Shown: positions 25,304-44,524 of the stretch, one piece after another
How positions within the stretch are numbered: position 1 is the first letter of the stretch
Layout of the letters: every line of letters begins with the position of its first letter
Translations under genes and position numbers: made by a program
The notes under the pieces: generated by a model
Told to the model about the DNA's origin: nothing
Seen by the model: the letters and a program-made list of their open reading frames with translations, nothing else
Databases searched by the model: none
NCBI GenBank assembly: GCA_947085345.1
Contig: CAMTWC010000016.1
Location: 5,657-69,656, forward strand
From: an uncultured Gammaproteobacteria bacterium
Lineage (GTDB): Bacteria > Pseudomonadota > Gammaproteobacteria > Burkholderiales > Thiobacillaceae
DNA length: 64,000 nucleotides
Direction of reading: 5' to 3'

Positions 25304-25307
25304 CCGC

Positions 25308-26304: not shown

Positions 26305-26420
26305 GATTGACTCCAGAGGTAAGTGAAACAGGGACGACTTGATTCGGGATTCCTATCGACAAGCCAGAGCGACCAGAGCCCAATGGGCCACGCCCGCACG
26401 GATGTCTGGACCTCGATCAC

Positions 26421-26463
26421 AGCATAGCGACCAGGATGGGTGCGGTCGGTACGGTGGCGCACA
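26421..26463 (-). promoter_or_regulatory. CRP-like site plus -10 hexamer driving the BON gene
   Basis: Minus strand TGTGCG-CCAC-CGTACC (26448-26463), 21-nt gap, then TATGCT (26421-26426) preceded by C. Confidence 0.7.
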
Positions 26464-26534
26464 TAGTGCAGTGTGGACTGCCGCAAGATTTTTCTTGCGG
26501 AGGGTTGAGCCGGAATCATGCTTACGCGAATGCC

Positions 26535-26960
26535 TTAACGATTAGGCCCATGATCACGATCGTTGCCGTGGCGGTCGTTCTGGTTGCCGCGACGATCGTC
26601 CCTGTGCCCGTCACGGCGGTCATCGCGATGTTGTTTCTGATAATTCGGAACGTACTCGCGGCTGTACCAGTCGTTTTGCACAAAGTAGACGCGTTCGCCG
26701 CAGGCGTTGTACTCGCGGCAGTGTTTGCGCCAGTTCCTGGCATGACCAGGGGGCACATGCAGGTAGATCGGCGGGCGGCTCGCCGCTACCCGCTGGATGA
26801 CTCGTGGCTCCCGATAGATAATGCGTGGCGGCGGATAGCCGCCGATGTCGATCTGGCCATAGAAGCCGGGCTGACCGATGCTGATGGACACCCCGACATC
26901 GGCCGCGAGTGCCGGAACGGTGGCGGCGGCCAGTGCGGCTGCGAAGAGTGAGCGTTTCAT
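26535..26960 (-). CDS. Secreted Pro/Arg-rich hypothetical protein
   Basis: Signal peptide MKRSLFAAALAAATVPALA, then DVGVSISIGQPGFYGQIDIG, YLHVPPGH, Asp/Arg/His-rich tail; start set at ATG 26960. Confidence 0.8.
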   Translation of the reverse strand: MKRSLFAAALAAATVPALAADVGVSISIGQPGFYGQIDIGGYPPPRIIYREPRVIQRVAASRPPIYLHVPPGHARNWRKHCREYNACGERVYFVQNDWYSREYVPNYQKQHRDDRRDGHRDDRRGNQNDRHGNDRDHGPNR

Positions 26961-27106
26961 ATTGAGGCTCCTGTGAGTAGTTGTCGTGCTTACATGCGTG
27001 AGGGTGTTGCCGCAGATCGGGACGCCGCTACAGCGGAAGGGAATCAGCGCCAGCCTGAAGTCTCCGCCGAAGGGCGGTCTTGTTCCGTGCGTAACTGCTT
27101 GCGATA

Positions 27107-27149
27107 AGACTACGCGAACACCGCCACCCAATCTGTGCGCTAGCGCACG
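27107..27149 (-). promoter_or_regulatory. CRP-like site plus -10 hexamer driving the Pro-rich protein gene
   Basis: TGTGCG-CTAG-CGCACG (27134-27149), 21-nt gap, minus-strand TAGTCT (27107-27112). Confidence 0.72.
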
Positions 27150-27183
27150 CAGGATCATTGGCGATCCTGCGCGGTCGCCTCCA

Positions 27184-27226
27184 TGTTCGCCAGCGCACTG
27201 AACGGTGCGCGGCATTCGCCTATGCT
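27184..27226 (+). promoter_or_regulatory. CRP-like site plus -10 hexamer driving the collagen-like lipoprotein operon
   Basis: TGTTCG-CCAG-CGCACT (27184-27199), 21-nt gap, TATGCT (27221-27226) preceded by C. Confidence 0.72.
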
Positions 27227-27324
27227 GTCGATCTTCCGGGTGCGACATCTCAAGTCGAGCCGGTTCTCTCGCGGATGGCTCGACGCCCTCCGTGCCACGA
27301 TGTATCTCTTGCCAAGGATTGACC

Positions 27325-27576
27325 ATGAACCATACGCTACTGATTTCCACACTGCTCGCAACGCTGAGCCTGGCTGCTTGTGACAGGCCGACCGTGGTCA
27401 CGGTGCCCGCCGCGCCCGTCGCGGTTCCCGGCCCCGCGGGTCCGCAGGGTGCCACCGGCAGCCAGGGTGCAACCGGCTATCAGGGCAACGAGGGTGTCCA
27501 GGGCGAGGCCGGCAAGTCAGGCGATGGCACCACGGTGATCGTGGTGCCGGCCGAGGCTGCTGCGCCGACGAACTGA
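27325..27576 (+). CDS. Small lipoprotein with collagen-like Gly-X-Y repeats
   Basis: Lipobox LAAC; 11 consecutive GXY triplets from GPA to GDG; start set at ATG 27325. Confidence 0.8.
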   Translation: MNHTLLISTLLATLSLAACDRPTVVTVPAAPVAVPGPAGPQGATGSQGATGYQGNEGVQGEAGKSGDGTTVIVVPAEAAAPTN

Positions 27577-27604
27577 ATCCACTTGCCCATTCGAGGCGCG
27601 CCTC

Positions 27605-27761
27605 ATGTTGGGAACTATACCGTTGGCCGTTCTGATCCTGATGCTGCTCGGCGCCGTTCCGCGTTGGGCTCATAGCCGGAATTGGGGCTACGGCCGCCAG
27701 TGGCGGACTGGGTTTGCTGGTGGCCGTCGACATCGTGCTGCTGCTGATGGGGCGGCTGTGA
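27605..27761 (+). pseudogene. DUF3309 family small membrane protein with a +1 frameshift
   Basis: MLGTIPL...HSRNWGYG; removing one base after GGC TAC GGC restores PSGGLGLLVAVDIVLLLMGRL-stop (51 aa). Confidence 0.75.
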
Positions 27762-27826
27762 CGAGCCGTCGCGCGCTGCGGTCCGGCTGATGTGACCCTG
27801 CACAGCGCCGGGTTGATGGAGGATTG

Positions 27827-29237
27827 ATGGTTGCAGGAACCCTGAAGTCGGCGCATCTGCGGCATTGGCCAGCCGCAGCCCTGCTCGTACTGACTGGTTG
27901 CAGCAGCCTGCCGACCATCGTGCCCGACCTGGCCCGGCGCCCCGGCCCGCCCGTGCAACTGGAAGGGGCGCGCGGCGCGCTATCGGCCGCGCACAGCAAG
28001 GCAATCCTCGACCGGCTGGAAAACCGCAGCCAGGAAACCGGCATCTTCGACCACCACCTGGCGCGCGAAGAGGCCATCGTCGGCAGCCCGCTGACCGCCG
28101 GCAACCAGGTGCGGTTGCTGCAGGACGGCCCGGCCACCTACCAGGCGATGTACGCAGCCATCATGGCGGCCCGGGACCATATCAACATGGAAACCTACAT
28201 CCTGGACGACGACGAAGTCGGCCAGCGCTTTGCGCAGGCACTGATCACCAAGCAGGGGCAGGGCGTGCAGGTCAATCTCATCCGTGACAGCGTGGGCACC
28301 CTCGGCACACCGGCGGCCTTCTTCCAGCAACTGACCGACAGCGGCGTCCAGGTGCTCGAATTCAACCCCATCAACCCCCTGGTGTCGCGCAAGGAATGGA
28401 CGTTGAATCAGCGCGACCACCGCAAGCTGCTGATTGTCGACGGACACACGGCGTTTCTCGGCGGGATCAACATCAGCGGCGTCTACTCCGGTGGCTCGTT
28501 CCGCTTCGGTTCGCGAGCGAAGCCCGACGAGGGGGCAGAGCCTGGCCTTGCTTGGCGCGATACCGACCTGCAACTGCAGGGGCCGGTGGTGGCCGAGTTC
28601 CAGAAGCTGTTCCTCGCGACCTGGGAAAACCAGAAGGGCGAGCCGCTGCCCGGGAAGAACTACTTTCCGCCGCCCGAGCACGCGGGCCCGCACCTGGTGC
28701 GCGCGATCGGCAGTTCGCCCGACGAATCCTTCAGCCTGATTTATGCCACGCTGCTCTCGGCCATCGCCAGCGCGGAAGTCAGCGTGAATATCACCAATGC
28801 GTATTTTGCCCCCGACCCGCAGCTGCTCGACGCGCTCGAAGCGGCCGCCCGGCGTGGCGTCGGCGTGACCTTAGATTCTGCCGAGCCAGACCGATTCCTG
28901 GCTGGTGTTCCATGCCGGACGCAACTACTACGACCGGCTGCTGCGAGCGGGGGTGAAAATCCACGAGCGGCGCGGCGTGATCCTGCATTCCAAGACCGCG
29001 CTGATCGACGGCGTCTGGGCCACGGTCGGCTCGACCAACCTCGACTGGCGCAGTTTCCTGCACAACCACGAACTGAACGCGGTGGTGCTGGGGCCGGAAT
29101 TTGGAAAACAGGTGCAGGCGATGTTCGACAAGGATCTCGCAGCGTCCGACGCGATCATGCTCGAGCAATGGCAGCGCCGGGCGCTCGATCTGCGCCTCAC
29201 GGAATGGTTCGCCCGGGTCTGGGAGTATTGGCTGTAG
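27827..29237 (+). pseudogene. cls: Cardiolipin synthase (ClsB-like PLD) split by a +1 frameshift near 28874
   Basis: First HKD (RDHRKLLIVDG) is in one frame, second (LHSKTALIDG...VGSTNLD) in another; deleting one base in TTAGATT restores GVTLILPSQTDSWLVFHAG. Confidence 0.85.
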
Positions 29238-29299
29238 CCAGGACGGCCAGTTCCATCGTTCCCTTGCGACCGGCCGCCGGGCTGGATGATTAGCGCGAT

Positions 29300-30198: not shown

Positions 30199-30318
30199 CA
30201 ATATATGTCCTTTTGCACGATGATGTGGGCTGCAGGTAGTTCTGTTGCGGCCGCGGATAGTCGTCGATGTCTGGGTGGCCATCTAAAAACGGGTTGGCCG
30301 AGGACCCGCACAGCCCTG

Positions 30319-30947: not shown

Positions 30948-31105
30948 GCGGTCTATCCTTTCCTGTTCAAGCAAGTGGGTGAGCAGACGGCGTGCAGCCG
31001 CACCGGCTCGTCTAGCGGCATTACTGGAGCCACTTCAATAGCTGCCTGCAGTGCAGGCAGGCTTCGGACGTGTCCATAGCCGTTCTATGCAGCAATCAAG
31101 ATTCT

Positions 31106-34100
31106 TCAGCTCAGAACAACCTCGACATGGTGCTCCCGGCGGTCGTCCACCAGGGGGATCACGCCTTGCGGTCGTCCTGCGCCAGCGACGCTGGCGTCAT
31201 ATACCAGGGCGCCGTCCACCGTCACGCGGATCACGTGTCCCGATTGTTCACCGATGCGTCTGATGGTGATGTGGTGGACGGTCTCGCGATAGCGGTAGTG
31301 GATTGTGTACACGTCCCAATGGGCCGGGACGCACGGCGCAATGCGCAGATGGTCCACTTCCAGGTGCAGGCCCAGCAGGGTTTCCACGGTCAGCCGGTAC
31401 ATCCAGCCCGCCGCCCCGGTGTACCAGGTCCAGCCGCCGCGGCCGGTGTGCGGCGACGCGCCATAGATGTCCGCGCACATGACGTAGGGTTCGACCTTGT
31501 AGCGTTCGATGGCCTCGGGCGTGTTGCCGTGATTGACGGGATTGAGCATGGCGAAGCATTCCCACGCGCGTTCCGCGTTACCCATCATGGCAAAAGCCAT
31601 CGTGGTCCAGATCGCGGCATGGGTATATTGGCCGCCGTTCTCGCGGACGCCGGGCACGTAGCCCTTGATGTAGCCGGGCTCCAGGTCTGATGTATCGAAA
31701 GGCGGGTCGAGCAGCTGGATCAGTTGCGCATCGCGCCGCACCAGGCGCTGGTCCACTGCTGCCATCGCCTGGCGGGCCCGCACGGGGTCGCCGCCGTTGG
31801 AGATGACCGCCCAGCTCTGGCTGATCGAATCGATCTGGCATTCGTCGTTGGCGGACGATCCCAGGGGGGTGCCGTCGTCGAACCAGGCGCGCCGATACCA
31901 GGCACCATCCCAGGCTTGGGCCTCGATGTTGGTGCGCAGCAGTGCCGCCTGGTCGCTGCACACCTCGGCAAAGGCTGCGTCGCCCCGGCCACGCGCCAGG
32001 CCGGCAAACAGATCCAGGTTCTCGACCAGGAACCACGCCAGCCACACGCTCTCGCCCTTGCCATCGCGACCGACGAGATTCATGCCGTCGTTCCAGTCGC
32101 CACAGCCCATCAGCGGCAATTGATGTGCACCGAAACGCAGACCGTGTTTGATGGCACGCACGCAATGCTCATAGAGGCTGGCCGCTTCGGGCGAGCGCTG
32201 CGGCTGGTCGTAGTAAGCCTCCTCTTCCGGATTCAACTCGCGTCCCTCCAGGAAATGGATGGGCTCGTCGAGCACGCCCGTATCGCCGGTCGCCCGCACA
32301 TAACGACAGCTTGCATACGGCAGCCACAGATAGTCGTCGGAGAAATGGGTGCGTACGCCCTGTCCGTTGGGCGGGTGCCACCAGTGTTGCACGTCGCCCT
32401 TGAGGAACTGGCGCCCGGCGCAGCGGATCAACTGCTCGCGGGCAAGCCACGGTGTCGCATGGATCAGCGCCATGGTGTCCTGCAATTGATCGCGGAACCC
32501 GTAGGCGCCGCCGGACTGGTAATAGCCACTGCGCCCCCACAGCCTGCAGGACAGGGTCTGATAGACCAGCCAGCCGTTGGCCAGCACGTTCAGCGCAGGG
32601 TCCGGCGTGTCCACATTCACCGCGCCCAGGGTGCGGTTCCAGTGTTCCCACACCGTTTCCAGTGCCTGCCGCGCGCTCGCCCGCCCGCTGAATCGCTGGA
32701 TGAGCTGCCGCGCTTCGTCGGCGTTGCGGGCCGCGCCGAATACGAACACGATCTCGCGCGTTTGTCCGGCGGCCAGTTCGATCCGGCTCTGTATCGCGGC
32801 GCACGGATCCAGGCCGGCCCCGGTCTTGCCCGACAAGCGCGTGCGGCGCATCGCCGCCGGGCTGGCCAGCGAGCCGTTGCGGCCGATGAACTCGGTCCGG
32901 CTTCCGCTCACCGACCGCTCGCGCTCGCTGACCTGCGCAAACACCACCCGGTTGGCGCATTCGCGGCCATAGGCATTGCGGGCAAACAGCGCCCCGGTGT
33001 GCGGATCCGTTTCGGTGACGATGTGCATCAGATTGGCGTGTCGCCACTCGCCGAGCACCAGTTCCCAATACCCGGTCAGCGACAGGCTGCGCGCGCGCTT
33101 CGACTGGTTGTGCAGCTTGACCACCAGGAACTTCACCGGTGCGTCCATGGCGACATAGGTGAACAGTTCCGAGGCGATGCCGGCCTCAAAGTGTTCGAAC
33201 ACGCTGTAGCCGAACCCGTGCCGGCACACGTAGCCTGAGCGGCCGCGGGCGGGCAGGGGCGTCGGCGACCAGAACGCACCCGTTTCCTCGTCGCGGATGT
33301 AGAGCGCCTCGCCGCTGCTGTCGGAGAGCGGGTCATTGTGCCAGGGGGTCAGCCGGAACTCGTGCGCGTTTTCCGCCCAGGTATAGGCGCTGCCGCTCTC
33401 GCTGACGACCGTGCCGATGTGCGGGCTGGCGATCACGTTGACCCACGGCGCCGGCGTGTTCTGACCGGGTTCGAGGGTGACGACGTATTCGTGCCCGTCG
33501 GGCGTGAAGCCGCCCAGGCCGTTGCTGAAAATGCGATCGCGCGCTGCCAGCGGATACACCGGTTCGGTGGTCGCCTGCTGCGAGGGCTCCAGGCGGTCCG
33601 ACGCACGCTCTGCCGACACGCGGCGTTCCACCTGCTCGATCAGGGTCTCGGCGGTATCGCTGAAGACGATGCGGGCGACCGTCTGCAGCAGAACCCGCTC
33701 GTCCTCGGAAAGCTCTTCTGCACGCCGCACGAAGACACCGCCCGGTTTGTCGATCACCTGCGCTTCGGGCCCCGCGTTGATCAGCCCCATGATCAGGTCT
33801 TGCAGCACCGCCCGGTAGCCCGAGAAATCCTCGTTCACGATCACCAGGTCGGCGGTCAGGCCCTTCATTCGCCAATAGGCATGGGCTTGCAGCACCTGCT
33901 TGACCCGGTCGATGCGTTTGATGTCGCCGATGTGCAGCAGGACGATCGGCAGATCGCCCGAGATGGCAAAGCGCCACAGCCCGGACTGCCCCAGCTGGTT
34001 GCGGGCGATGATGCCGGGCGCGGCGCGGCGCAGGCCATTGCCGTAGATGACGGAGTTGGCCAGACGGCCAAAGACCTGTGCGTCGGCTTCGGTGGCGTTG

Positions 34101-37100
34101 AGGTGGCGCAGCACCTCCTGGCTCTGGAACCAGGCCATTTCAAACGCGCGCTCGACGAAGTGGCGGTCGCAATATTTATCGAGCAGCACCAATGCGGCCT
34201 CGCGCGTGTCCGCGACCCCGGAGATGATCTGCACGGTGGCCGATTCGTCGGGTGAGAGGGTCAGGGTGCGGCGGATCGCCACGATGGGATCGAGCACCGA
34301 CCCCTCGGTGTTCGACAACGGCGGGCTGTCGCGGCTGTCCAGAACCAGCGGGTTGGCAGGCGTGCGGCCACGCCCGATGAAGCGGGCGCGGTCGGTCTCG
34401 TAGGACGGTTCATCGGCCACCGCGCCCGGTGCGGCCAGCAGGTGAAACATCCATGGCACCTGCTCGCCCGGCATGCGGGGACGCCGTGTGCAGAGGATCG
34501 CCTGGCGCTCGGGCAGGATTTCGGTCTGCACGAACAGATTGCTGAACGAGCGATGCGCCAGGTCGGCATTCAACGGCGCCAGCACCACTTCCGCGTAACT
34601 CGTCACCTCGATGTGACGGAGCCGCGACGACTGGTTGGTGAGCGTGACACGACGGATTTCGACGTCGTCTTCAGGGGACACGCTGATCTCGGTGTGCGCT
34701 TCGATCGCCTGATCGCGCCGCCGGTATTCGGCGCGCGCCTGCACGAAGATCGCCTCGTAGTGATCGGCACGGCGCAGGGTCGGTTGATGCGCAGTCGACC
34801 AATACCGCCCGCTGTCGCGGTCGCGCAGGTAAATGAAGGTGCCCCAGCCATCGGAGGTGGCGTCCTCGCGCCAACGGGTGACGGCGAGGTCGCGCCAGCG
34901 GCTGTAACTGCCGCCGGCATGGGTCGCCATGACGTGGTAGCGGCCGTTCGACAACAGGTGAACTTCAGGGATCGGCGTGTTCGGTTCGGTGAACACGCGC
35001 ATGATCGCGCCGACGTCCGCGCTGGGGGGGCGTGCGGCGGCACTCACTTCGGCCGCGTGCGGGTGCAGGGTGGCGCCCTTCTTCGGCACCCGCTCCTGCA
35101 GCAACAACTCCGTTGCCCGGGCGAGCGGGTCGGACATGAAGCGGCGCTGCATCGGCTGGTTGAGCAATACATGCGCAAAGGCCAACAGGCTCATGCCCTG
35201 GTGATGCGCCATGAACGACCGCACGATGGCGTGAGGCTTGCCGCGCGGCACCCGCGATGGCGTGTAATCGACCGCCTCGTAGAAGCCGTAGGCGCCTAGA
35301 AAGCCATGATCGGACAGCGTCTGCAGGTTGCGGCACGCTTCCCGCGGCATCACCGTCAGCGCCAGTGCGCTGGCGTAGGGCGCGATGACCAGATCGTCCC
35401 CCAGTCCGCGCTTGAAGCCCAGCCCCGGCACGCCGAACGCCCGGTATTGGTAGACCTGGTGCATGTCGGTGGCGTTGTAGCAGGACTCGGAAATCCCCCA
35501 GGGGACCGCGCGTTGCCGGCCGTATTCGATCTGGCGCGACACCGCGGCCTTGCAGGTCTGTTCCAGCAGGGTGTTCGCGTAACTCGGCATGATCAGCTGC
35601 GGCATCAGGTACTCGAACATCGAGCCGCTCCACGAAATCAGGCTCACATCGCCGCCATGACTGGTCAGCAGGCGGCCAAGCGAGAACCAGTGCTTCTGCG
35701 GCACCTGTCCCTGCGCGATGAGCAGAAAACTGGCCAGGCGTGCTTCCGATGCCAGCAGGTCGTAGCAGGTTGGATCGCGTCGCCGTTCGCCGACGTCGTA
35801 GCCGATGGCCAGCAGGCCGCACGCAGCATCGTAGAGAAATTCGAAATCCATCGCCGCCAGTGCGCGACAACGATTCATCAGATCATCGATGATGGCGAGC
35901 TGCGTCAGCGCGCCTGTGCCTGCCGCATGCGCGCCGGCCAGTTCCATCCGTGTGGGGATGACGCTGAAGTGCTGCGGATCGGGTACGAGCAATTCAAGCT
36001 CGTCCCGAAGGGCGCGGGATTGCTGGTCGAATGCCTGCGCCCAGTAAGCCAGTTCGCCATCGATATCCGATGGCAGCCATGCAACCAGCACTCCGCCGAT
36101 GCGGTGAATCTCGTTCAGCGCGCTGGCGGTGGCAGTCAGCGTTTGCGGCGGTCCGTCCAGCGTGAATGCGCGGAGGATATCCCGCAGCAAGCTGATCTTT
36201 TTCGCAAGCCCGGGGGCGGGAGAGGCGGGCACGTGTTCGGCCAGAACCTGCAGGGTGTCCTGCAGCCCCTGGAGCGCGTTGGACGACAGCACCGGCTGAT
36301 TTTTCAACTCGGCCAGCCCCGCCTGCAGGGTGAGCAGACTGCCGGCCAGGTTGCCGCTGTCCACCGACGAGACGTATTGCGGGTGGAGCGGTTGCAGCGT
36401 GCGGGTGTCGTACCAGTTGTAAAAATGGCCACGGTAGCGTTCCAGTTTTTCCATCGAGGCCAGGGTGTTGCCGACGCGCCGCAGGCATTCTCCGGCCGTG
36501 ATATAACCGAAATCGACCGCCGCCAGGTCGGCCAGCAGCGACATGCCCATGTTGGTGGGCGAGGTGCGCGAGGCGATGGCCGGCGCCGGATATTCCTGGA
36601 AGTTGTCGGGCGGCAGCCAGTTGTCCTCTGGCCCGACGAAATCCGTGAAATAGCGCCAGGTGCGTCGGGCCGATGCCCGCAGGAACGCACGCTGATCGAC
36701 GCTCAGGTCCGGAGCGGGGGACACCAGCGGCCGGCTGATCCACCAGCCGATGACGGGCGACACCAGCCACAGCAACAGAATGGGCGCAGAAAAAATCCAT
36801 TCCACTGGCGGACGGGTCCAGGCCAGCGCCACGCCCAGCGCTGCCGCGAGAACCGGCGCGATCCACATCTCCCGGAAAAAATCGGCCAGTGACCGGCGTG
36901 CGTTGCGGCGTGCGTAGGCGGGCAGTTGCCACAGCAGCAAGCCGCGTCGCGTGAACAGCATCCGCACCCCCGAGCGCAGGATCGCCCCCAGGCCTATCAG
37001 CGTGTCGTAGGGCAAAAAGGCCAGGGTCAGCAGGGCGAGCGCGATCGGGTGGCCCGCGGATTTGCCGGTCAGACTCAGGTGCACCAGCCAGTCGCGTTCC

Positions 37101-39772
37101 TCAGGCTTGCGAATGAGTTCGATCACGGTGGACAGCAGGGTGGGCAGGAACATCACCGCAACGACTAGCAGGGTCCAGAACCACTCGGGTCCCGGACCCA
37201 ACAGCCATCCCCCTGCCAGCAAGGCGAGCAGCGACGGCGGCACGAGGCTGCGTCGCAGGTTGTCGAAAAGCTTCCACCGCGACAGGGCCGAGAGCGGGTT
37301 CGCCTGCCGCTTCGCCTTCGCTCCATTTTGCCCAGGCGGTCCCGGCACGCGCGGCAGCAGCCAGCCGGCAAGCTGCCAGTCGCCGCGTATCCAGCGATGG
37401 CGCCGGCTGGCCTCGATGGTGACACTGGCCGGATGTTCTTCGATGAGGTCGACATCGGTCACCAGTGCCGAACGCGCATAGCCGCTTTCCAGCAAATCGT
37501 GACTGAGGATGAGATTCTCCGGAAAGCGTCCGTCGACGGCTTGTCGAAACGCATCTACGTCGTAGATGCCCTTGCCGATGAACGAGCCTTCCCCGAAAAC
37601 ATCCTGGTAGACATCCGAAACCTCGCGCGTGTAGGGGTCTAGCCCCGAGTCGCCCGCGAACAGTCTGGTAAAGCGTGACTGGCCTGCACTGGTCAGGCTG
37701 ATCGAGGCGCGCGGTTGCAGGATCGCGTAGCCTTCGCCTATACGCCCCTTGCCGGCATCGTAGACCGGGCGATTGAGCGGATGCGCCAGATTGCCGACCA
37801 GGGTGCGTGCCGCGTCGCGCGGCAGTTGCGTGTCGGTATCCAGGGTGATGACGTACCGGATCGAAGCAAGAAGGGAGGTATCCCCGACAATGTCCGAGAA
37901 GGCCGTGTGCGCCCCGCCCCTGAGCCGGGCATTGAACTGTTCCAGCTTGCCGCGCTTGCGCTCATAGCCCATCCACACCTGCTCGAATGGATTCCACACC
38001 CGGGGCCGGTGAAACAGATAGAAGATGCACGGGCGATCGTCGCGGTAGGTCGCGTTGAGTGCTTCGACCGCGGCGCGCGCGTGGGCGAGCAAGGCCGCGT
38101 CGTCCGGCAGCGTTTGCTCGGGCGCGTCGCGGAAATCGGTCAGCAGGGCAAAGAACAGATTGAGATCGCGATTGCCGAGATAGCGGATCTCCATCGCTTC
38201 GAGCAGATCATCGACGTCCTGCGGGCTTGCCAGCAGGGTGGGGACGATCACCATGGTGCGATGGGCATCCGGGATCCCCGTGGAAAAATCCAGTCGCGGC
38301 AACGCGCGCGGCGGCAGGGTGAGCGTGACCAGCAGATTCACCAGCGGGACGGCCAGCGCGGAGGCGCCGATGATGAGGGGAAGTGCAAAAAACCAGACCC
38401 GCCCGTCGCCCGGATCGAAGCCGCCGAGAGCGGACAGAACGATCGCTGTCGCCAGTGCAGTCAGCAAGAGAATGGGACCGAGGTATAGAGGCAGCCGGAC
38501 ATGCCGGCTCGTTCGGCTGATCCGGGATTTCCACGACGGCCGGCAGCGGACCGCACGCTCCAGACGCTGCCGCCCCCGGTCGATCAGATAGTAGCCGACA
38601 TGCGCGCTGCGGTCGCGGATACCCCGTTGCGCGGCAGCCGCCTGCGCGAGAACAATGACTTCGCGTGCCACCGCCATTTCGCCGCACGTGCTGCCGCGCG
38701 CCACATCCTCGATGACATGCCGGTAGCGGTCGCGGGTGGCGAAATCCTGGCTGGCGTACATCGCCATCGGGTCTTCGCGCAAGGTCTGTTCGACGACACT
38801 GAGCGACTCGACGTAATGCTTCCAGTCCATGGCGCCGATGAAACGCAGGCTGCCGATGCTGTTGGCGATGGAAATCTGGTTGGCCGCGGCCGTTCGACCG
38901 GCCGCCTCCGACAATTCGGTTGCGGTCACCCCCTGTTCGTGCAGTTTTTGCTCGACCCAGGTTTGAACGAAGGCCATGGCGGGGCCCTGAGCCTGGAGCC
39001 GGTCGTAAAACTCCTCCACAAACGGCGCAGTCAGCGGCACATCGGCATTGGCAAACTCGGCCAGCAGCTGGATCAGCTGTTTCGGTTCGCTTTCGGCCGC
39101 GGCGAGCATGCGGTCTGCCCAGGTGATGGCCGCATCCCGCTCCTCGCGCCGCTGGGCGATACGCACCCCGACGCGGCGCAGGTTTTCCAGCAGCGCCAGC
39201 TGCAGCATGATCGGGAAGGCCCACAATTCGCCCAGCTTCAAGGATTCGACAGTCTGGTAGGCGGCGATGAACCGGGTGGCGTTGTCGCTGTCGACGCGGC
39301 CGTCCATGTGGGAGATCAATTCCAGCGCCAGGTCGTAGATGCGGGGGAAGCCGGCCGACAGGCCATCGGCCAGTCGCGGCAACTGCCGGCTGTATCCGCG
39401 CGGCAGATGCCGGCGCGCCAGACCGATCTGCTGCTCGATCAGATAGAAATTGTCGAGCAGCCAGGCCTCTGCCGGCACGATCCGTTGTCCCGGCGTCGCG
39501 GCGGCAGTGACGACGTCATAGGCCGCCAGCAGAACCTGCGCATTGTCCGCCAGCCGCGGCAGCAACCTGTCCGGCTCCGGACGGGGATCGATTCGATGCT
39601 GGCCTGCCAGGGTGACCGCGTGACGCTTCAGCTGCTCGATGCTGAACAGCTCCGAACGCAACAATTCGGTATCCCGGTCGTGACGCAGCGCGTTCCGCGT
39701 GCGTGAAGGAAATCCGAGCTCTTTAATGTCGATGACCTTCTCCTTGCTCGAACTCGGGGTGATCAGCGGCAC
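31106..39772 (-). CDS. ndvB: Cyclic beta-1,2-glucan synthase (NdvB/ChvB/Cgs; GT84 plus GH94)
   Basis: 2888 aa; [83 protein letters not shown]. Confidence 0.92.
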
Positions 39773-40011
39773 TGGCCTGATGAGAGGTGCCCGGCGAGCA
39801 CGCCGGGCACGTTTTGCCTGTTGATTCGATCGCGATTTTTTTGCGCTGTTATGGCAGGGATTGAGGGCGTCGGGGTGGAACTGGACAAAATCCGTTATGC
39901 GACTGCCCGGAATTGTATGTCCTGTCTTTCAGCTGCGGCAGCACCATCCATCATGACCGGCAGCCGCCTTGCGATCCCAGCCAGGCTTGTGGCGGTCAGG
40001 AGAAACGGCGA

Positions 40012-40224
40012 CTACTTGCGCATAAAAAGCAGAAACGCGCCTGCTGCTATTGCACCCACGCCGGCCCAGACGGGGATGTTTACGGTCTCCTTGTCCTTGA
40101 TCGACAGCTCGATCGGACCCAGCTTGGCCTCGTGCGTGTCCTTGGTATAGGTGAACCCGCCATACAATAAACCGAGACCGCCGGCCACGATCAGCACGAT
40201 GCCCAACATTTTGACTGCATTCAT
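40012..40224 (-). CDS. DUF3185-like small membrane protein
   Basis: 70 aa, LGIVLIVAGGLGLLYGGFTYTKDTH...IPVWAGVG; start set at ATG 40224. Confidence 0.75.
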   Translation of the reverse strand: MNAVKMLGIVLIVAGGLGLLYGGFTYTKDTHEAKLGPIELSIKDKETVNIPVWAGVGAIAAGAFLLFMRK

Positions 40225-40350
40225 TTCATCTTCTCCAGTAGGGATGTACGTGATTCGTGCCACAGGCGACGGGGAAGCCGGGTAGAAAGCACGCGTAACC
40301 AGCCGCATCGCCCTACCCGGCAGCTCCCAGCATAGAATACTTCCAGGTCG

Positions 40351-40497
40351 TTACAGACTTCGGCCCTGAATGACACGCACCAGGATCACCACGATCGCGA
40401 TGACCAGAAGGATGTGAATCAGCCCGCCCATGGTGTATGAGGTGACCAGGCCAAGCAGCCAGAGGATGATCAGGATAATTGCAAGGGTTTGTAACAT
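40351..40497 (-). CDS. Lmo0937-family small membrane protein
   Basis: 48 aa MLQTLAIILIILWLLGLVTSYTMGGLIHILLVIAIVVILVRVIQGR. Confidence 0.85.
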   Translation of the reverse strand: MLQTLAIILIILWLLGLVTSYTMGGLIHILLVIAIVVILVRVIQGRSL

Positions 40498-40600
40498 GTT
40501 TTCTGCTCCAGATAAGGGGTGTTTTTGTCGCGGAGCCAGCCATCCGCCGAGTGACCGCGATGCGCCGACCAGGTGGAGCCGGCGCATCGCATGTCGAATA

Positions 40601-40816
40601 TCATTTGCCGACTTCGTGGCCGATGACGCCGCCGACAGCCGCGCCGCCCACGGTTCCGACTGCGCTGCCGCCCGTCAGGACGGCACCGCCGATGGCGCCG
40701 ACCCCTGCACCGACTGCGGTGTTTTTGTCCTGCGACGACATGTTGGCACATCCGCCCAAGCCGAGCAGGAGGCTCGCGGAAACGGTAACTAGTGTGAGTT
40801 GCTGTATGGTTTTCAT
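40601..40816 (-). CDS. Glycine-zipper 2TM lipoprotein (OsmB-like)
   Basis: Lipobox LGGC, TAVGAGVGAIGGAVLTGGSAVGTVGGAAVGGVIGHEV. Confidence 0.88.
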   Translation of the reverse strand: MKTIQQLTLVTVSASLLLGLGGCANMSSQDKNTAVGAGVGAIGGAVLTGGSAVGTVGGAAVGGVIGHEVGK

Positions 40817-40961
40817 GGCATTCCTTTGAGGAGCATGGTTTGGAAGTGGCGCATCGGCAAACCCTTGCCGGGCAAGCACTGTGCTTCGCCAGGCGCGCGG
40901 TTTTTAGTGTGGCGCCTGGTCGCGGTGCAGACGCCGCACACATGCGGGCCCCGATGATTCA

Positions 40962-41004
40962 AGCTTAGGGGGCGCTGCCGTCGCCGTCTGTCTGCCAGCG
41001 CACA
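40962..41004 (-). promoter_or_regulatory. CRP-like site plus -10 hexamer driving the glycine-zipper/Lmo0937/DUF3185 genes
   Basis: Minus strand TGTGCG-CTGG-CAGACA (40989-41004), 21-nt gap, TAAGCT (40962-40967) preceded by C. Confidence 0.72.
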
Positions 41005-41040
41005 TAACGCAGGCAGCGCGCCCATCAAAGGGCTACTCCG

Positions 41041-41796
41041 TCACTCAGGGACGGCGTGGGTCGGACTGTCACCGCCCTGGCGGTATCTCACATCGCACAG
41101 CAGACGGTTCAGTTCCGTCTTCACCACGGCGTAGCACTCGCAGACGCGGGTTTCCAGTCCGGCGCGATCCAGCACCGCGATGTGACCGCGGCGGTAACTG
41201 ATGACACCCGCATGCTGCAATTTCCCGGCAGCCTCGGTGATGCCTTCGCGGCGCACGCCGAGCATGTTGGCGATCAGTTCCTGCGTCATGACCAATTCGT
41301 TCGAGGGCAATCGATCCAGCGTCAGCAACAGCCAGCGGCACAGTTGTTGTTCCACCGAATGGTGCCGATTGCACACCGCGGTCTGCGACATCTGTGTCAT
41401 CAACGCCTGGGTGTAGCGCAGCAACAAGCGCTGCAGCAAGCCGGCGCGATTGAATTCCTGCAACAGCTTGCGGCTCTCCAGCCGATAAGCGTGTCCCGCG
41501 GTCTGCACCACGGCCGAGCTGGAGGTGGTGTCGCCGCCCATGAACAACGACACGCCGACGACGCCCTCGTTGCCCACGCCCGCGGATTCGGACGAAGCGC
41601 CAGACTCCATGACGTAGTGCAGTGAGACGATGGCGGAGGTGGGGAAATAGGCGTGCCGCAAGTGGCTGCCGGGCTCGTAGAGCATTTCACCGAGCGGCAG
41701 CTGGACCCATTCCAGATGCGCGACCAGGAGGTCGAATTCCGCCGCGGGCAGGGCGGCGAGAAGATGGTTCTGGCTTGGATGATGGGGTGTGGCCAT
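41041..41796 (-). CDS. Crp/Fnr-family transcriptional regulator
   Basis: QNHLLAALP, cNMP-binding-like beta region (AYFPTSAIVSL, VGNEGVVG), HSVEQQLCRWLL, HTH MTQELIANMLGVRREGITEAAGKL. Confidence 0.92.
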   Translation of the reverse strand: MATPHHPSQNHLLAALPAAEFDLLVAHLEWVQLPLGEMLYEPGSHLRHAYFPTSAIVSLHYVMESGASSESAGVGNEGVVGVSLFMGGDTTSSSAVVQTAGHAYRLESRKLLQEFNRAGLLQRLLLRYTQALMTQMSQTAVCNRHHSVEQQLCRWLLLTLDRLPSNELVMTQELIANMLGVRREGITEAAGKLQHAGVISYRRGHIAVLDRAGLETRVCECYAVVKTELNRLLCDVRYRQGGDSPTHAVPE

Positions 41797-41820
41797 TGCT
41801 GATGGTAGCGTTGCTGCGTT

Positions 41821-42645
41821 CTACTTTTTAGCGGTGATTTCCACCCCGATGCCGCGGTAACCGATAAAGCGGCAGGACTGGGTGAACATCGGTTCGCCGC
41901 TGACCCTGAACCGCTGGTGCGAGCCATTGGCATTGACGCGGCTGTATATGAAATCAAGGAAGGGCTGGCGGGCGGCAATGGTGGCCTGAAGATAGGCCCG
42001 CTCTTCCTCGTTCCAGCCCGTGACATGACCGTCGGCGGCTTCCCCCGTAAGGGCGCCGACACGGATGCCGAGCATCTCCAGGACCGGGCCGGAAACCTTG
42101 GTGAAATTCATGTTCTCGTCCTGCTCCCAGTACCAGTCGGAGGCCAGTTCGGTCAGGCTGCGATAGCGCGCTTCACTTTCGCGTAATTCGGCGGTCCGCT
42201 CCCGCACTGTCTGTTCCAGTACCTGGTTGTAATGGTCGAGTTTCTTGTATAGCAGACGTACCTCCAGCATGTTATGGATGCGTGCCCTGGCTTCGACCAG
42301 GTCGAACGGCTTGCTGATGAAATCCTTGGCGCCGGCCTGCAAAGCACGCAGCTTGTGGCCGGGCTGGGCGGTGATCACAAGGACCGGCAGGTAGCCGTCG
42401 GCTTCGTTGGTCTTGAGGCCTTCCATCACCTGGAACCCATCCATACCGGGCATCTGCAGGTCGAGCAGGATCAGGTCGTAGTGGTTCTTGCGATGCAGCG
42501 CGAACACCTCGCGCGGATTCATGGTCGAGTCAACGTTGACGTAGCCGGCTTCACTCAGCATCTGCGCGAGCAGCATGACGTTGGGTTCCTGGTCGTCGAC
42601 GATCAGAATGCTGGCGTTCAGCATTTCCGACTCGTTCAGCATCAT
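41821..42645 (-). CDS. Response regulator: REC, coiled coil and PAS, no output domain
   Basis: ILIVDDQ, LLDLQMPGMDG, DFISKPF, ERTAELRESEARYR, DWYWEQD PAS, ends shortly after YRGIG. Confidence 0.85.
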   Translation of the reverse strand: MMLNESEMLNASILIVDDQEPNVMLLAQMLSEAGYVNVDSTMNPREVFALHRKNHYDLILLDLQMPGMDGFQVMEGLKTNEADGYLPVLVITAQPGHKLRALQAGAKDFISKPFDLVEARARIHNMLEVRLLYKKLDHYNQVLEQTVRERTAELRESEARYRSLTELASDWYWEQDENMNFTKVSGPVLEMLGIRVGALTGEAADGHVTGWNEEERAYLQATIAARQPFLDFIYSRVNANGSHQRFRVSGEPMFTQSCRFIGYRGIGVEITAKK

Positions 42646-44360
42646 GTTTGATCCTTTTTTGCTGCGCGGTTCGCTGGGGTTTTTGCGTGGGTCAATGCCA
42701 CATCCAGTGCATCCAGGAAGGAATTGACCTTGATCGGCTTGGTCAGGTAATTGAAAAACCCGGCCGCGAGGGCTTGCTCGATGTCACTGGCCAGGGCATT
42801 GGCGCTCAACGCGATGATCGGAATATGCGCCGTCATCGGGTCCGCGCGCAGGATGGTCATGGCTTCGACGCCGCTGATGCCGGGAAGGTTGATGTCCATC
42901 AAAATCACCTCCGGCTGATAAGCGCGCGCGAACTCGATGCCGAGGTTGCCGTCCGCCACGGAGAGCAGCCGCAGGTCGGGGCGGCGCGCAATGATTTGCT
43001 CGACCAGTTCCAGATTATCCGGATTGTCCTCGACGTAGAGCAGGGTACGCAGCGGGGTGCCATCCGGCAAGCGCGGCTGCCGCAGTGCCGCATCCGGGTC
43101 TTCCTGGACAGCAAGATGCGGCGCCGCGGTCAGGCCCAATTCCACCCAGAACACGCTGCCCGTGCCGACGGTGCTGTCCACGCCGATGACGCCCCCCATC
43201 AGCTCGACCAGCCGTTTGGTCACCACCAGGCCGATGCCCGTGCCTTCCTCTGTGCCAGTCTCCTTGCCGAGCCGGTTGAACGGCTGGAACAACTGCGCAA
43301 GCTGGTCCGGCGCCAGCCCTGCACCGGTGTCGCGGACGCTGATGCGGATCGAATCCGGCGGGCACGGGATGCACTCCACGTCCACCGTGCCGCCCGGCTT
43401 GTTGTACTTGATGGCGTTGAACAGCAGATTGATCAGAACCTGTTTGAGCCGGGTCCGGTCGGCTTTGACAAAGAAAGGTGTCCTGAAGCGCGGAAAGCTC
43501 ATGCCGATGCCGCGCTTCTGGGCCTGCGGCTCAATCATGGCCCGGCATTCGAGCATGACATCGGCCAGCGAGACGGGCTCCTGCGACAGCGTCACCTTGC
43601 CCGACTCGATCAGCGCGAGATCGAGGATTTCGTTGATCAGTTCCAGCAGGTACCAACCGCCCTTCAGAATCTGGTCGAGGCTGCGCTGCTGAATAAGGGT
43701 CGGTTGCGGCGTTCCGGATTCCATGAGCTGGGCGAAACCAAGGATCGCATTGAGTGGTGTGCGCAGTTCATGGCTCATGCCGGAGAGAAAGTCAGATTTT
43801 GCGCGGTTGGCTTTGTCTGCCGCGGCCATCGCCTCGTTCAGCTTCGCTTCGACCTGCTTGCGCACTGAGTTGTCGGTGCCGATCAAGAGGTAGCCGATGA
43901 GCGCGTCATGGTCATCGCGCAGCGCCGTGATCGACACGTTGGCGTCAAAGCGGCTGCCATTCTTGCGGATGATGGTCGTCTCGTAGACGTCGTAGACGTC
44001 CTCGATTCCGCGCGACGCCTTGAAAGCCAATGCCTCGAAGCCGGGCGCGATGGGGGTGGCGAGTTCGATGCTCAGCGCCTGCGCGCGTGCCATCACGTCC
44101 TGCGGATCATGCATCTCGCTTGGACTGATCCGGTTCACGACTTCAGCGGCGTCGTAGCCCAGCAAGCGCTCGGCGCCGACATTGAATAGCTGGATGATGC
44201 CTTTCTCGTCGGTGGCGATGATCGCGAAATTGGCGCTGGTGAGGATTGCGTTCTGCAAGGCCCCCGTTTTAAGCAAGGCCTCCTGGCGCTGCGTTTCGCT
44301 GCTGCCTGTCGCCTTGCCGACAGCGTCGACAAGGGCGGAAGCGTTTCCTGTTTCGGACAT
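42642..44360 (-). CDS. Cytoplasmic PAS hybrid histidine kinase
   Basis: N-terminal PAS (IIATDEKGIIQLFNVGAERLLGY), H-box MSHELRTPLNAI, NLLFNAIKYN, DTGAGL, GTGIGL, C-terminal REC (LYVEDN, ILMDINLPG, YLTKP); no TM segment. Confidence 0.92.
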   Translation of the reverse strand: MSETGNASALVDAVGKATGSSETQRQEALLKTGALQNAILTSANFAIIATDEKGIIQLFNVGAERLLGYDAAEVVNRISPSEMHDPQDVMARAQALSIELATPIAPGFEALAFKASRGIEDVYDVYETTIIRKNGSRFDANVSITALRDDHDALIGYLLIGTDNSVRKQVEAKLNEAMAAADKANRAKSDFLSGMSHELRTPLNAILGFAQLMESGTPQPTLIQQRSLDQILKGGWYLLELINEILDLALIESGKVTLSQEPVSLADVMLECRAMIEPQAQKRGIGMSFPRFRTPFFVKADRTRLKQVLINLLFNAIKYNKPGGTVDVECIPCPPDSIRISVRDTGAGLAPDQLAQLFQPFNRLGKETGTEEGTGIGLVVTKRLVELMGGVIGVDSTVGTGSVFWVELGLTAAPHLAVQEDPDAALRQPRLPDGTPLRTLLYVEDNPDNLELVEQIIARRPDLRLLSVADGNLGIEFARAYQPEVILMDINLPGISGVEAMTILRADPMTAHIPIIALSANALASDIEQALAAGFFNYLTKPIKVNSFLDALDVALTHAKTPANRAAKKDQT

Positions 44361-44481
44361 GGTGGGGTTCCGTGAAAAGCGTACGACGATCCGGGGGGAA
44401 GGCTACGCTTGTTTTGGGCAACAAAACAATGGGGCCGCCGCAGTCGGACAAGAAACCGGGTTTCTCCAAGGTTGAGCCTGG

Positions 44482-44524
44482 ATCATCGCGGGCTTTCACA
44501 TGATTTTCTGTGCGCTGGCACACA
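44482..44524 (-). promoter_or_regulatory. CRP-like site plus weak -10 driving the kinase/regulator/Crp operon
   Basis: TGTGCG-CTGG-CACACA (44509-44524), 21-nt gap, minus-strand GATGAT (44482-44487). Confidence 0.6.

What the first reader, a model, noticed from the sequence alone, without database searches (positions are those of the whole stretch)
26421..44524. Self-contained Crp/Fnr-type stress regulon: variant CRP box TGTGCG-N4-CGCACA at five promoters with identical geometry
Seen: five intergenic 16-mers (26448, 27134, 27184, 40989, 44509; 10-11 or 10 of 12 consensus positions) each lie exactly 21 nt upstream of a hexamer on the strand of the downstream gene (TATGCT, TAGTCT, TATGCT, TAAGCT, GATGAT), four preceded by C. 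Known: this spacing matches class II CRP activation (site centred near -41.5); C-TAnnCT is the RpoS-type -10; in CRP, R180 and E181 read TGTG while R185 reads the next pair. The local Crp protein has GVRREGITE versus CRP GCSRETVGR, keeping R-E but with Glu at the R185 position, which fits TGTGA changing to TGTGC. Targets are BON, glycine-zipper, collagen-like and Lmo0937/DUF3185/DUF3309 small envelope proteins plus the regulator's own operon. Inference: a general/osmotic-stress activator system that I do not recognise as described.
Basis: partly seen in the sequence, partly recalled or inferred. Interest (0 to 1): 0.88.

Follow-up and report, generated by a model that had tools for sequence, protein, structure and literature searches.

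The report
Crp-family stress regulon promoter box
Six promoters in this Thiobacillus genome share a 20-bp box at a fixed distance from the -10 element. It is very probably the binding site of an unstudied Crp-family activator encoded next door, which appears to switch on small envelope and stress proteins and its own operon. The whole module is shared, box included, by hundreds of other proteobacteria and some plasmids.

Summary
All five 16-mers lie at the stated coordinates, each exactly 21 nt upstream of a -10-like hexamer on the strand of the downstream gene.

The bare 16-mer is not enriched in the window (8 found, 7.7 expected). The full architecture is. A matrix trained only on other genomes picks six sites in this 2.86-Mb genome at 30-36 bits: the five reported and one more before an OmpA-like gene. 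Unrelated sequence scores 17 bits or less.

Around 99 orthologues of the local Crp, the box plus 21 nt plus TAnnnT occurs 110 times, against about 6 at other spacings.

Consensus: TA-TGTGCGC-YA-GCGCACA-GAC-N17-(C)TAnnCT. This puts the site centre at -41.5, the class II position.

Box and Crp co-occur perfectly in near-complete relatives (16/16 against 0/13). Burkholderia orthologues with Glu184 changed to Ser have lost G at the matching box position (0/18 against 68/142).

Recurrent targets are BON, CsbD, glycine-zipper, OmpA-like, DUF883 and DUF3309 proteins and the regulator's own genes.

RpoS dependence is not supported as obligatory. cAMP binding is unlikely. The signal is unknown.

No description was found in the literature, and no binding or transcription-start data exist.

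The parts
44509..44524 (-). Box 5 (TGTGTGCCAGCGCACA in gene orientation), the promoter of the kinase/REC-PAS/Crp operon. This is the autoregulatory site.
   Evidence: Matrix score 30.9 bits. In relatives, 28 boxes precede kinase genes and 36 precede crp genes.
44482..44487 (-). -10-like hexamer GATGAT, 21 nt from box 5. Predicted +1 near 44475.
   Evidence: The start site is inferred, not mapped.
42642..44360 (-). Soluble hybrid histidine kinase: PAS, HisKA, HATPase and REC domains.
   Evidence: Pfam. Found near crp in 65 of 99 loci.
41821..42645 (-). Response regulator with REC and PAS domains and no DNA-binding domain. It overlaps the kinase gene by 4 bp.
   Evidence: Pfam. Found within the fetched locus of crp in 80 of 99 loci, in most of them directly upstream of crp, at 64-88% identity.
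41041..41796 (-). Crp/Fnr-family regulator with recognition helix VRREGITEA. Proposed binder of the box.
   Evidence: Pfam cNMP_binding plus HTH_Crp_2. AF2 model with pLDDT 87; best PDB neighbours are Mtb CRP, GlxR, FNR and NtcA. Co-occurrence with the box. Helix-box covariation.
40989..41004 (-). Box 4 (TGTGCGCTGGCAGACA in gene orientation), just downstream of the crp stop codon.
   Evidence: 36.3 bits. The same promoter is conserved in same-genus relatives, with a diverged spacer.
40962..40967 (-). -10 hexamer TAAGCT. Predicted +1 near 40955.
40601..40816 (-). Glycine-zipper 2TM lipoprotein, first gene behind box 4.
   Evidence: Pfam PF05433. 15 box-driven homologues in relatives.
40351..40500 (-). 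DUF5670 (Lmo0937-type) small membrane protein.
   Evidence: Pfam. 6 box-driven homologues.
40012..40224 (-). 70-aa two-TM protein.
   Evidence: Only a weak DUF202 hit. 3 box-driven homologues.
31106..39772 (-). 2888-aa GH94 / cyclic-glucan-synthase-like giant protein, directly downstream of the box 4 operon. A probable island member. Box-dependent transcription is not shown.
   Evidence: Translation. Homologues lie in the same island as crp on P. aeruginosa pKLC102 and Burkholderia plasmids. No own box found.
27184..27199 (+). Box 3 (TGTTCGCCAGCGCACT).
   Evidence: 30.2 bits.
27221..27226 (+). -10 hexamer TATGCT. Predicted +1 near 27233.
27325..27790 (+). Collagen-like lipoprotein (27325-27576) and DUF3309 protein (27605-27790) behind box 3. 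A PLD-family gene (27824-29293) may follow in the same unit.
   Evidence: Pfam. 4 box-driven DUF3309 genes in relatives.
27134..27149 (-). Box 2 (CGTGCGCTAGCGCACA in gene orientation), divergent from box 3. The two centres are 50 bp apart.
   Evidence: 32.8 bits.
27107..27112 (-). -10 hexamer TAGTCT. Predicted +1 near 27100.
26535..26960 (-). 141-aa secreted protein of unknown family, behind box 2.
   Evidence: Translation. No Pfam or NCBIfam hit. 3 box-driven homologues.
26448..26463 (-). Box 1 (TGTGCGCCACCGTACC in gene orientation).
   Evidence: 35.1 bits.
26421..26426 (-). -10 hexamer TATGCT. Predicted +1 near 26414.
24911..26304 (-). Likely operon behind box 1: BON/OsmY-like (25990-26304), a 73-aa ORF (25690-25911), DUF883/ElaB-YqjD-like (25308-25697) and a YqjE-like Phage_holin_3_6 protein (24911-25303).
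   Evidence: Pfam and NCBIfam. 22 box-driven BON genes and 5 DUF883 genes in relatives. BON orthologues occur only in genomes that have the box.

Best explanation
The 41041-41796 protein is a cAMP-independent member of the Crp/Fnr superfamily. As a dimer it binds the 20-bp box TA-TGTGCGC-YA-GCGCACA-GA.

The box is centred 41.5 bp upstream of the predicted start site and overlaps a residual -35 (GAC). From there the protein would activate transcription by contacting RNA polymerase, as CRP does at class II promoters.

In this genome it would drive six promoters:
- BON/DUF883/YqjE-like operon
- a 141-aa secreted protein
- collagen-like lipoprotein and DUF3309
- glycine-zipper/DUF5670/70-aa operon, possibly running on into the GH94 giant gene
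- an OmpA-like protein on another contig
- its own kinase/REC-PAS/Crp operon (positive autoregulation)

Regulator, boxes and targets together form an accessory, horizontally mobile envelope and general-stress module.

Shown by computation: the architecture, its conservation, co-occurrence with the regulator, the recurrent target set, and covariation between helix and box. Inferred: binding, activation rather than repression, start sites, the stress role, and the input signal. The signal could come through the PAS kinase and REC-PAS protein, or through an invariant Cys/His set in Crp itself.
For: (1) Geometry. Around 99 orthologues (1.31 Mb), box + N21 + TANNNT occurs 110 times, against 1-18 at other spacings. 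When sites are selected by the box alone, A at -11 and T at -7 emerge at spacing 21 (139 sites) far more often than at 22 (27) or elsewhere. The promoter-proximal flank is asymmetric (G-A-C), matching positions 3-5 of TTGACA with a 17-bp spacer.

(2) Independent detection. A matrix trained on other genomes separates exactly six sites in this genome (30-36 bits). Apart from reverse readings of those same sites (20.5 bits or less), nothing else exceeds 17.2 bits.

(3) Clustering. 305 sites of 20 bits or more lie in 84 of the 99 loci, at a median of 50-160 nt before start codons.

(4) Co-occurrence in 41 relatives. 20 of 20 genomes with an orthologue have box hits at E of 0.01 or better. Only 3 of 21 without one do, and all three are 70-87% complete assemblies. 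Among genomes at least 90% complete it is 16/16 against 0/13, p = 1.5e-8.

(5) Autoregulation. 36 boxes precede crp genes and 28 precede the kinase operon.

(6) Footprint. In same-genus genomes the box and -10 are kept while the spacer diverges.

(7) Covariation. Orthologues with RREG(I/V)TE have G at box position 4 in 68 of 142 sites and C at position 13 in 75 of 142. Burkholderia orthologues with RRSGVTE have 0 of 18 and 0 of 18 (p = 2e-5 and 5e-6). This is the base pair that CRP E181 reads.

(8) Family. CRP fold and domains.
Against: - There is no binding or expression evidence and no mapped start site.
- The bare 16-mer is not enriched in the window.
- The covariation rests on one lineage (Burkholderia), so it is effectively a single evolutionary event.
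- A site overlapping -35 could also serve a repressor.
- The kinase and REC-PAS genes are absent from the pKLC102 and Burkholderia islands, so they cannot be the universal input.
- Target functions are known only as family names.
- Three incomplete relatives have boxes but no detectable crp.
Confidence: 0.8

Rival explanations
1. The box is an operator. The Crp protein represses these promoters by occluding the -35 region and releases them under stress.
For: The site overlaps the -35 position. Some Crp/Fnr proteins act as repressors at such positions (general knowledge).
Against: A repressor does not need one exact spacing. Here spacing 21 dominates in several hundred promoters across classes. 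The -35 is reduced to GAC, and no promoter in the region reaches a sigma-70 consensus score, as expected of activator-dependent promoters. Positive autoregulation at the same geometry is common.
Confidence: 0.1
2. Another factor binds the box, either an unrecognised DNA-binding protein of the island or a host factor. The Crp gene is merely a co-inherited passenger or target.
For: Co-occurrence cannot separate genes that travel together. Three incomplete assemblies have boxes but no detected crp.
Against: Crp is the only DNA-binding protein shared by the Thiobacillus, pKLC102 and Burkholderia versions of the island. The box has the TGTG-N8-CACA frame of the family. The E184S change goes with loss of G:C at exactly the position predicted from the CRP code.
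Confidence: 0.06
3. The promoters are primarily RpoS promoters. (C)TAnnCT would be read by sigma-S, with Crp as a co-activator, making the module a branch of the RpoS regulon.
For: C precedes the hexamer in about 45% of sites and C is the fifth hexamer base in about 57%. The genome has a true RpoS. The target families (OsmY-like BON, CsbD, ElaB/YqjD-like, OsmB-like) are RpoS-dependent in E. coli (general knowledge).
Against: Near-complete genomes G030, G037 and G038 have regulator and boxes but no RpoS above the family cut-off, while every Crp-less genome of the same genus (Thiobacillus) still has RpoS. In a 64% G+C genome, G/C at the unconstrained -10 positions is expected for sigma-70 promoters too.
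Confidence: 0.3
4. The matches are chance G+C-rich palindromes or copies of a dispersed repeat.
For: The 16-mer with 2 mismatches or fewer occurs as often as in shuffled sequence.
Against: The spacing to the -10 is fixed, the sites are oriented toward genes, the spacers are not conserved, and the box is conserved at orthologous promoters.
Confidence: 0.01

Closest known systems
E. coli CRP (CAP) at class II promoters such as galP1
   Same: Same fold and domain order. Dimer site in the TGTG-N8-CACA frame. The Arg-Glu pair is kept in the recognition helix. The site is centred at -41.5, overlapping -35.
   Different: About 17% identity. The cAMP contacts are missing: by the HMMER alignment to GlxR, the Glu and Arg of the phosphate-binding cassette are Val and Thr/Ser. 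Box specificity sits further inward (GT-n-CG, extended to TGTGCGC). There is Glu where CRP has Arg185. The regulon is small envelope and stress proteins, not catabolism.
SdrP (TTHA1359) of Thermus thermophilus
   Same: A CRP/FNR-family protein described as a class II activator, with sites adjacent to or overlapping -35, that responds to stress rather than to cAMP (PMC8465061).
   Different: Its helix is VRETVTK and its site is TGTRA-N6-TYACA, close to CRP's. Its targets are different. It is not a close relative by sequence and does not appear among the PDB sequence hits.
NtcA of cyanobacteria, with its co-activator PipX
   Same: A structural neighbour. NtcA lacks Glu at the CRP-181 position and binds GTA-N8-TAC, which parallels the Burkholderia Ser184 variants that bind GTACG-N4-CGTAC. 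PipX shows that a small protein can co-activate a Crp-family factor, a possible model for the REC-PAS protein.
   Different: NtcA senses 2-oxoglutarate and controls nitrogen genes. No PipX homologue is present here. A REC-PAS/Crp contact is speculation.
Low-oxygen-activated (lxa) locus of Burkholderia cenocepacia
   Same: A self-contained stress island with a shared promoter motif at 17 intergenic points, Crp-family regulators next to a response regulator and a kinase (BCAM0287-0289), and BON-type and other stress proteins (PMC3721108).
   Different: The lxa motif is Anr/Fnr-like (TGA-N6-TCA) and its regulators are Anr-related. The B. cenocepacia orthologue of the present Crp lies in a different island, with no USP or REC genes.
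FixLJ-FixK and MrpAB-MrpC (two-component systems paired with a Crp-family regulator)
   Same: A sensor kinase and a response regulator encoded with, and acting upstream of, a Crp-family regulator that autoregulates (general knowledge).
   Different: FixJ and MrpB bind DNA and act on transcription of the crp-like gene. Here the response regulator has a PAS domain and no DNA-binding output.
General stress regulons of RpoS (Enterobacteria) and EcfG (Alphaproteobacteria)
   Same: The same kinds of targets: OsmY/BON, CsbD, DUF883 (ElaB/YqjD), glycine-zipper lipoproteins and small membrane proteins.
   Different: Those regulons are defined by an alternative sigma factor. This one is defined by an activator box upstream of a group-1/2-type -10.

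Membership tests
Crp/Fnr superfamily | N-terminal cNMP-binding-type beta-roll followed by a C-terminal Crp-type helix-turn-helix | tested here: met
   PF00027 (E = 2e-8) and PF13545 (E = 2e-14).
Crp/Fnr superfamily | CRP-like three-dimensional fold | tested here: met
   AF2 model with pLDDT 87.4 and pTM 0.84. Foldseek gives Mtb CRP, GlxR, FNR and NtcA at E about 1e-11 to 1e-12 and TM about 0.7.
Crp/Fnr superfamily | Palindromic DNA site with half-sites in the TGTG-N8-CACA / TTGA-N6-TCAA frame, read by the recognition helix | tested here: met
   Logo from 110 sites. The E184S change goes with loss of G:C at box positions 4 and 13. Binding itself was not tested.
Class II Crp-dependent promoters | Site centred near -41.5 relative to the mapped transcription start | tested here: inconclusive
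   The distance to the -10 hexamer is exactly as expected.
cAMP receptor proteins (CRP, Vfr, GlxR) | Phosphate-binding cassette with the conserved Glu and Arg that hold cAMP | tested here: not met
   In the HMMER alignment to GlxR the positions are Val and Thr. Orthologues read G(I/V)SLFMGG(D/E)TTPS(S/R)A.
FNR/Anr oxygen sensors | N-terminal cysteine cluster for a [4Fe-4S] centre, an E--SR recognition helix and a TTGAT-N4-ATCAA box | tested here: not met
   There is no Cys before residue 142. The helix is RREGITE and the box is TGTGCGC-N2-GCGCACA.
RpoS regulon | Promoters depend on sigma-S, and the system is found only where RpoS exists | tested here: not met
   RpoS is present here. G030, G037 and G038 have Crp and boxes without an RpoS above the cut-off. 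Dependence in this organism cannot be tested with these tools.

The most novel reading that the evidence does not exclude
This would be a third kind of bacterial general stress switch, beside RpoS and the EcfG/SigB partner-switch systems. It would be a horizontally mobile module whose master regulator is a cAMP-independent Crp-family activator, not a sigma factor.

In most lineages a soluble PAS hybrid kinase and an output-less REC-PAS protein would control Crp, with REC-PAS acting on Crp by protein contact, as PipX does on NtcA. Alternatively the signal would enter through an invariant Cys/His set in Crp (C142, H145, H146, C219, C221).

The module travels with its own promoters on plasmids and integrative elements, including P. 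aeruginosa pKLC102 and Burkholderia plasmids.
Probability: 0.3. Interest if true: 0.8.

Novelty: new variant of a known kind. Interest (0 to 1): 0.66.

Why it matters
If confirmed, this names the regulator, the DNA site and the core targets of a stress response that is widespread and apparently unstudied.

How widespread:
- 61 plasmids or chromids carry an orthologue

It would also explain how dozens of small 'domain of unknown function' envelope proteins are co-regulated: DUF3309, DUF5670, DUF883, DUF3096, BON, CsbD and glycine zippers.

It gives a clean natural example of the Crp recognition code (Glu184 with G:C, Ser184 with A:T).

It shows a complete regulon, promoters included, moving between genomes as one unit.

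Every element is directly testable with standard methods.

Tried and rejected
- **Enrichment of the plain 16-mer.** Not significant. Significance appears only with the spacing and the extended consensus.
- **Sigma-54 reading of TGGCGCACATAGTGCA at box 1.** Rejected. It points at a convergent gene and the other sites lack GG-N10-GC (reading).
- **Terminator and promoter consensus scans.** These did not define operon ends. No sigma-70 consensus promoter is present.
- **Literature.** Searches for the box, for Crp with CsbD/BON/DUF883, and for a betaproteobacterial stress Crp found nothing relevant.
- **Identity with the B. cenocepacia lxa system.** Rejected. That motif is TGA-N6-TCA, and the orthologue's locus holds no USP or REC genes. 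The lxa supplement is not held.
- **Bcam1349 as a relative.** The paper gives no motif, so this is undecided.
- **Helix-box covariation among the 99 close orthologues.** Uninformative, because the helix is nearly invariant. It became informative only with the Burkholderia Ser184 variants.
- **Shifted spacings and weak sites in this genome.** Only two doubtful extras turned up: C46:6941 and C24:9722.
- **Distances between the invariant Cys and His residues.** Model coordinates are not exposed to scripts, so these could not be measured.

Full report
**1. Observation**

Each is followed, toward the downstream gene, by exactly 21 nt and then TATGCT, TAGTCT, TATGCT, TAAGCT or GATGAT. Four of these hexamers are preceded by C.

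The bare 16-mer is not more frequent than chance: 8 in the window against 7.7 expected. The combination is. In the whole 2.86-Mb assembly (the window is C16:5657-69656), 16-mer + N21 + TANNNT occurs 5 times, against at most 1 at any other spacing from 10 to 34. This count revealed a sixth site on contig C109, position 836. That site drives an OmpA-family protein.

**2. Genes**

Pfam and NCBIfam confirm the annotation.
- Box 1: BON/OsmY-like, a 73-aa ORF, DUF883 (ElaB/YqjD-like) and a YqjE-like protein.
- Box 2: a 141-aa secreted protein of unknown family.
- Box 3, divergent from box 2: a collagen-like lipoprotein and DUF3309, possibly also a PLD-family protein.
- Box 4, just after the crp stop codon: a glycine-zipper lipoprotein, DUF5670 and a 70-aa two-TM protein. 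A 2888-aa GH94 giant gene follows.
- Box 5: a soluble PAS hybrid kinase, a REC-PAS response regulator without a DNA-binding domain, and the Crp-family regulator.

The organism is a Thiobacillus, judging by the best protein relatives.

**3. The architecture is conserved far beyond this genome**

Orthologues of the Crp protein at 69-85% identity were fetched from 80 species genomes of Beta- and Gammaproteobacteria. These include Thiobacillus, Rhodoferax, Massilia, Undibacterium, Accumulibacter, Gallionella, Methylobacter, Crenothrix and Arenimonas. A further 19 loci came from unnamed relatives.

In these 99 loci (1.31 Mb), the 16-mer (3 mismatches or fewer) + N21 + TANNNT occurs 110 times. Other spacings give 1-18, typically about 6.

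The logo is T-A-TGTGCGC-(T/C)A-GCGCACA-G-A-C, then 17 unconserved bases, then (C)TAnnCT. The promoter-proximal flank breaks the palindrome: it has G where symmetry predicts T, followed by C. This reproduces GAC of a TTGACA -35 hexamer with a 17-bp spacer. That places the box centre at -41.5.

When sites are chosen by the box alone, A (64%) and T (65%) emerge at the -11 and -7 positions. Spacing 21 (139 sites) far exceeds 22 (27) and all others.

A matrix built only from these foreign sites scores the six sites of this genome at 30.2-36.3 bits. Unrelated sequence scores 17.2 or less. The same matrix finds 305 sites of 20 bits or more in 84 of the 99 loci. They lie at a median of 50-160 nt before start codons.

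At the promoter just downstream of crp, same-genus genomes keep the box and -10 while the spacer diverges.

**4. Regulon content**

The first ORFs behind the 305 sites cluster as follows:

| Downstream gene | Sites |
|---|---|
| Crp-family genes | 36 |
| the PAS kinase operon | 28 |
| BON | 22 |
| CsbD | 20 |
| glycine-zipper lipoproteins | 15 |
| OmpA-family | 15 |
| a 203-aa lipoprotein | 9 |
| DUF5670 | 6 |
| a large predicted sensor protein (family not checked) | 6 |
| DUF883 | 5 |
| DUF6600 | 5 |
| DUF3309 | 4 |

These are the families that make up the RpoS and EcfG general stress regulons elsewhere (general knowledge). The stress role is therefore an inference from family names.

**5. 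Who binds the box**

(a) Co-occurrence. A sequence-only model was built from sites of named species genomes and searched in 41 relatives. All 20 genomes with an orthologue have hits at E of 0.01 or better. Only 3 of 21 without one do, and those three are 70-87% complete assemblies. Among genomes at least 90% complete the split is 16/16 against 0/13, p = 1.5e-8.

(b) Targets follow the regulator. BON orthologues (63% identity or more) occur only in genomes with boxes. Crp-less complete genomes have only 43-48% paralogues. Regulator, sites and targets are therefore gained and lost together.

(c) Family fit. The protein has the Crp domains and a confident CRP-like model. It keeps the Arg-Glu pair of the CRP recognition helix. 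The helix VRRE(G/S)(I/V)TEA is nearly invariant in 116 orthologue matches.

(d) Covariation. Orthologues on Burkholderia plasmids and chromids (65-70% identity) carry RRSGVTE instead, that is, Glu184 changed to Ser. I used a pattern that leaves box positions 4 and 13 free.
- Ser184 loci: G at position 4 in 0 of 18 unique sites (A in 16) and C at position 13 in 0 of 18.
- Glu184 loci: 68 of 142 and 75 of 142.
- p = 2e-5 and 5e-6.

In CRP, Glu181 reads the G:C pair at the corresponding half-site position. NtcA has no Glu there and binds GTA-N8-TAC (general knowledge). This is one lineage, so one evolutionary event, but it is the predicted change at the predicted place.

**6. What the protein probably does not do**

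The Glu and Arg that hold cAMP in CRP and GlxR are Val and Thr here. They are not conserved as such in orthologues, so cAMP sensing is unlikely.

There is no N-terminal Cys cluster, no E--SR helix and no TTGAT box, so it is not an FNR or Anr.

In 36 orthologues, C142, R144, H145, H146, C219, E220 and C221 are invariant and C153 nearly so. They lie at the end of the dimerisation helix and at the start of a C-terminal extension. A redox or metal site is possible. I could not measure distances in the model.

**7. Input**

The REC-PAS gene lies within the fetched locus of crp in 80 of 99 loci, in most of them directly upstream of crp. The kinase gene is found in 65 of 99. Both receiver domains have the usual acidic pocket and phospho-acceptor Asp (reading).

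Because the response regulator has no DNA-binding output, an effect on Crp by protein contact is the simplest idea. This is speculation.

The pKLC102 and Burkholderia versions of the island lack both genes. The two-component pair is therefore an add-on, not the universal input.

**8. Sigma factor**

The genome has a true RpoS. The -10 shows C before the hexamer in about 45% of sites and C at its fifth base in about 57%.

Three near-complete relatives with regulator and boxes have no RpoS above the family cut-off, while every Crp-less genome of the same genus still has one. RpoS dependence is possible here but cannot be a general requirement.

**9. Mobility**

Orthologues sit on 61 plasmids or chromids.

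One is the conjugative P. aeruginosa element pKLC102. There crp lies next to a GH94 giant gene, with four boxes nearby.

Several are Burkholderia plasmids, where crp lies among genes for BON, CsbD, DUF3309, DUF3096, glycine-zipper, YSC84, PRC-barrel, Spy/CpxP, a fatty-acid desaturase, transketolase, phosphoglucomutase and a 2888-aa 'glucoamylase family' protein. Insertion sequences and Tn3 transposases are scattered through these islands.

The recurrence of the giant GH94 gene makes the window's 31106-39772 gene a likely island member. It has no box of its own here.

**10. Literature and earlier notes**

No paper describing this box or this Crp subfamily was found.

The nearest published analogues:
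- The lxa locus of B. cenocepacia, an island with Crp-family regulators next to a response regulator and kinase, and a shared motif. That motif is Anr-type (PMC3721108).
- SdrP of Thermus, a stress-responsive class II Crp-family activator with a CRP-like site (PMC8465061).

Earlier notes of this scan report the same kind of box in three other genomes. I treated them as leads. The tests above were run independently here.

**11. Verdict**

The core interpretation is supported by several independent computational tests. The RpoS link and the Glu-for-Arg185 argument remain open.

This is a new variant of a known kind: a Crp-family class II activator with new specificity, a new regulon and an unusual signalling partner set. 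It is widespread and mobile, and no experiment has yet been done on it.

Noticed in passing
G000 contig C109:807-854 (-), outside the window: A sixth box of the regulon (TGTTCGCCAGCGCACG-N21-TATCCT) drives an OmpA-family protein with a Pro/Ala-rich linker. A CheY-like receiver gene lies divergently.
   Followed up: partly
window 41041-41796 (protein residues 142-153 and 219-221): Across 36 orthologues, C142, R144, H145, H146, C219, E220 and C221 are invariant and C153 nearly so. This could be a redox or metal site at the hinge and the C-terminal extension.
   Followed up: partly
window 31106-39772 (-): A 2888-aa GH94 / cyclic-glucan-synthase-like gene lies beside the regulon. Giant homologues (43-50% identity) lie in the same island as the Crp orthologue on P. 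aeruginosa pKLC102 and on Burkholderia plasmids.
   Followed up: partly
loci L013, L014, L016-L018, L021, L039, L055, L066, L069, L086, L090, L095, L100: A second Crp paralogue class (under 50% identity, helix RRVG(V/I)TK) usually lies just downstream of the main crp. It is itself preceded by the main box, which suggests a two-step regulator cascade. It is absent from this genome.
   Followed up: partly
G000 contig C122:9494-10327 (+): A second RpoS-like sigma gene scores 355 bits, just under the family cut-off. It is present only in G000, G003 and G009 among 41 relatives.
   Followed up: no
window 39787-39810: A perfect 10-bp G+C-rich hairpin (GTGCCCGGCG-N4-CGCCGGGCAC) with no T-run lies between the 70-aa gene and the start of the GH94 gene. 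Its role is unknown.
   Followed up: no
G000 contigs C46:6941 (-) and C24:9722 (+): Two weak extra candidates. One is a box-like site with spacing 20 to TATGCT (20.4 bits). The other is a good box (22.4 bits) with no -10.
   Followed up: no
L112-L117 (Burkholderia plasmids): The Burkholderia versions of the island are interspersed with IS5, IS21, IS256 and Tn3 transposases and HicB antitoxin genes. They also add PRC-barrel, YSC84, Spy/CpxP, DUF3096, slipin, Nramp, cation:proton antiporter, tkt and pgm genes.
   Followed up: no
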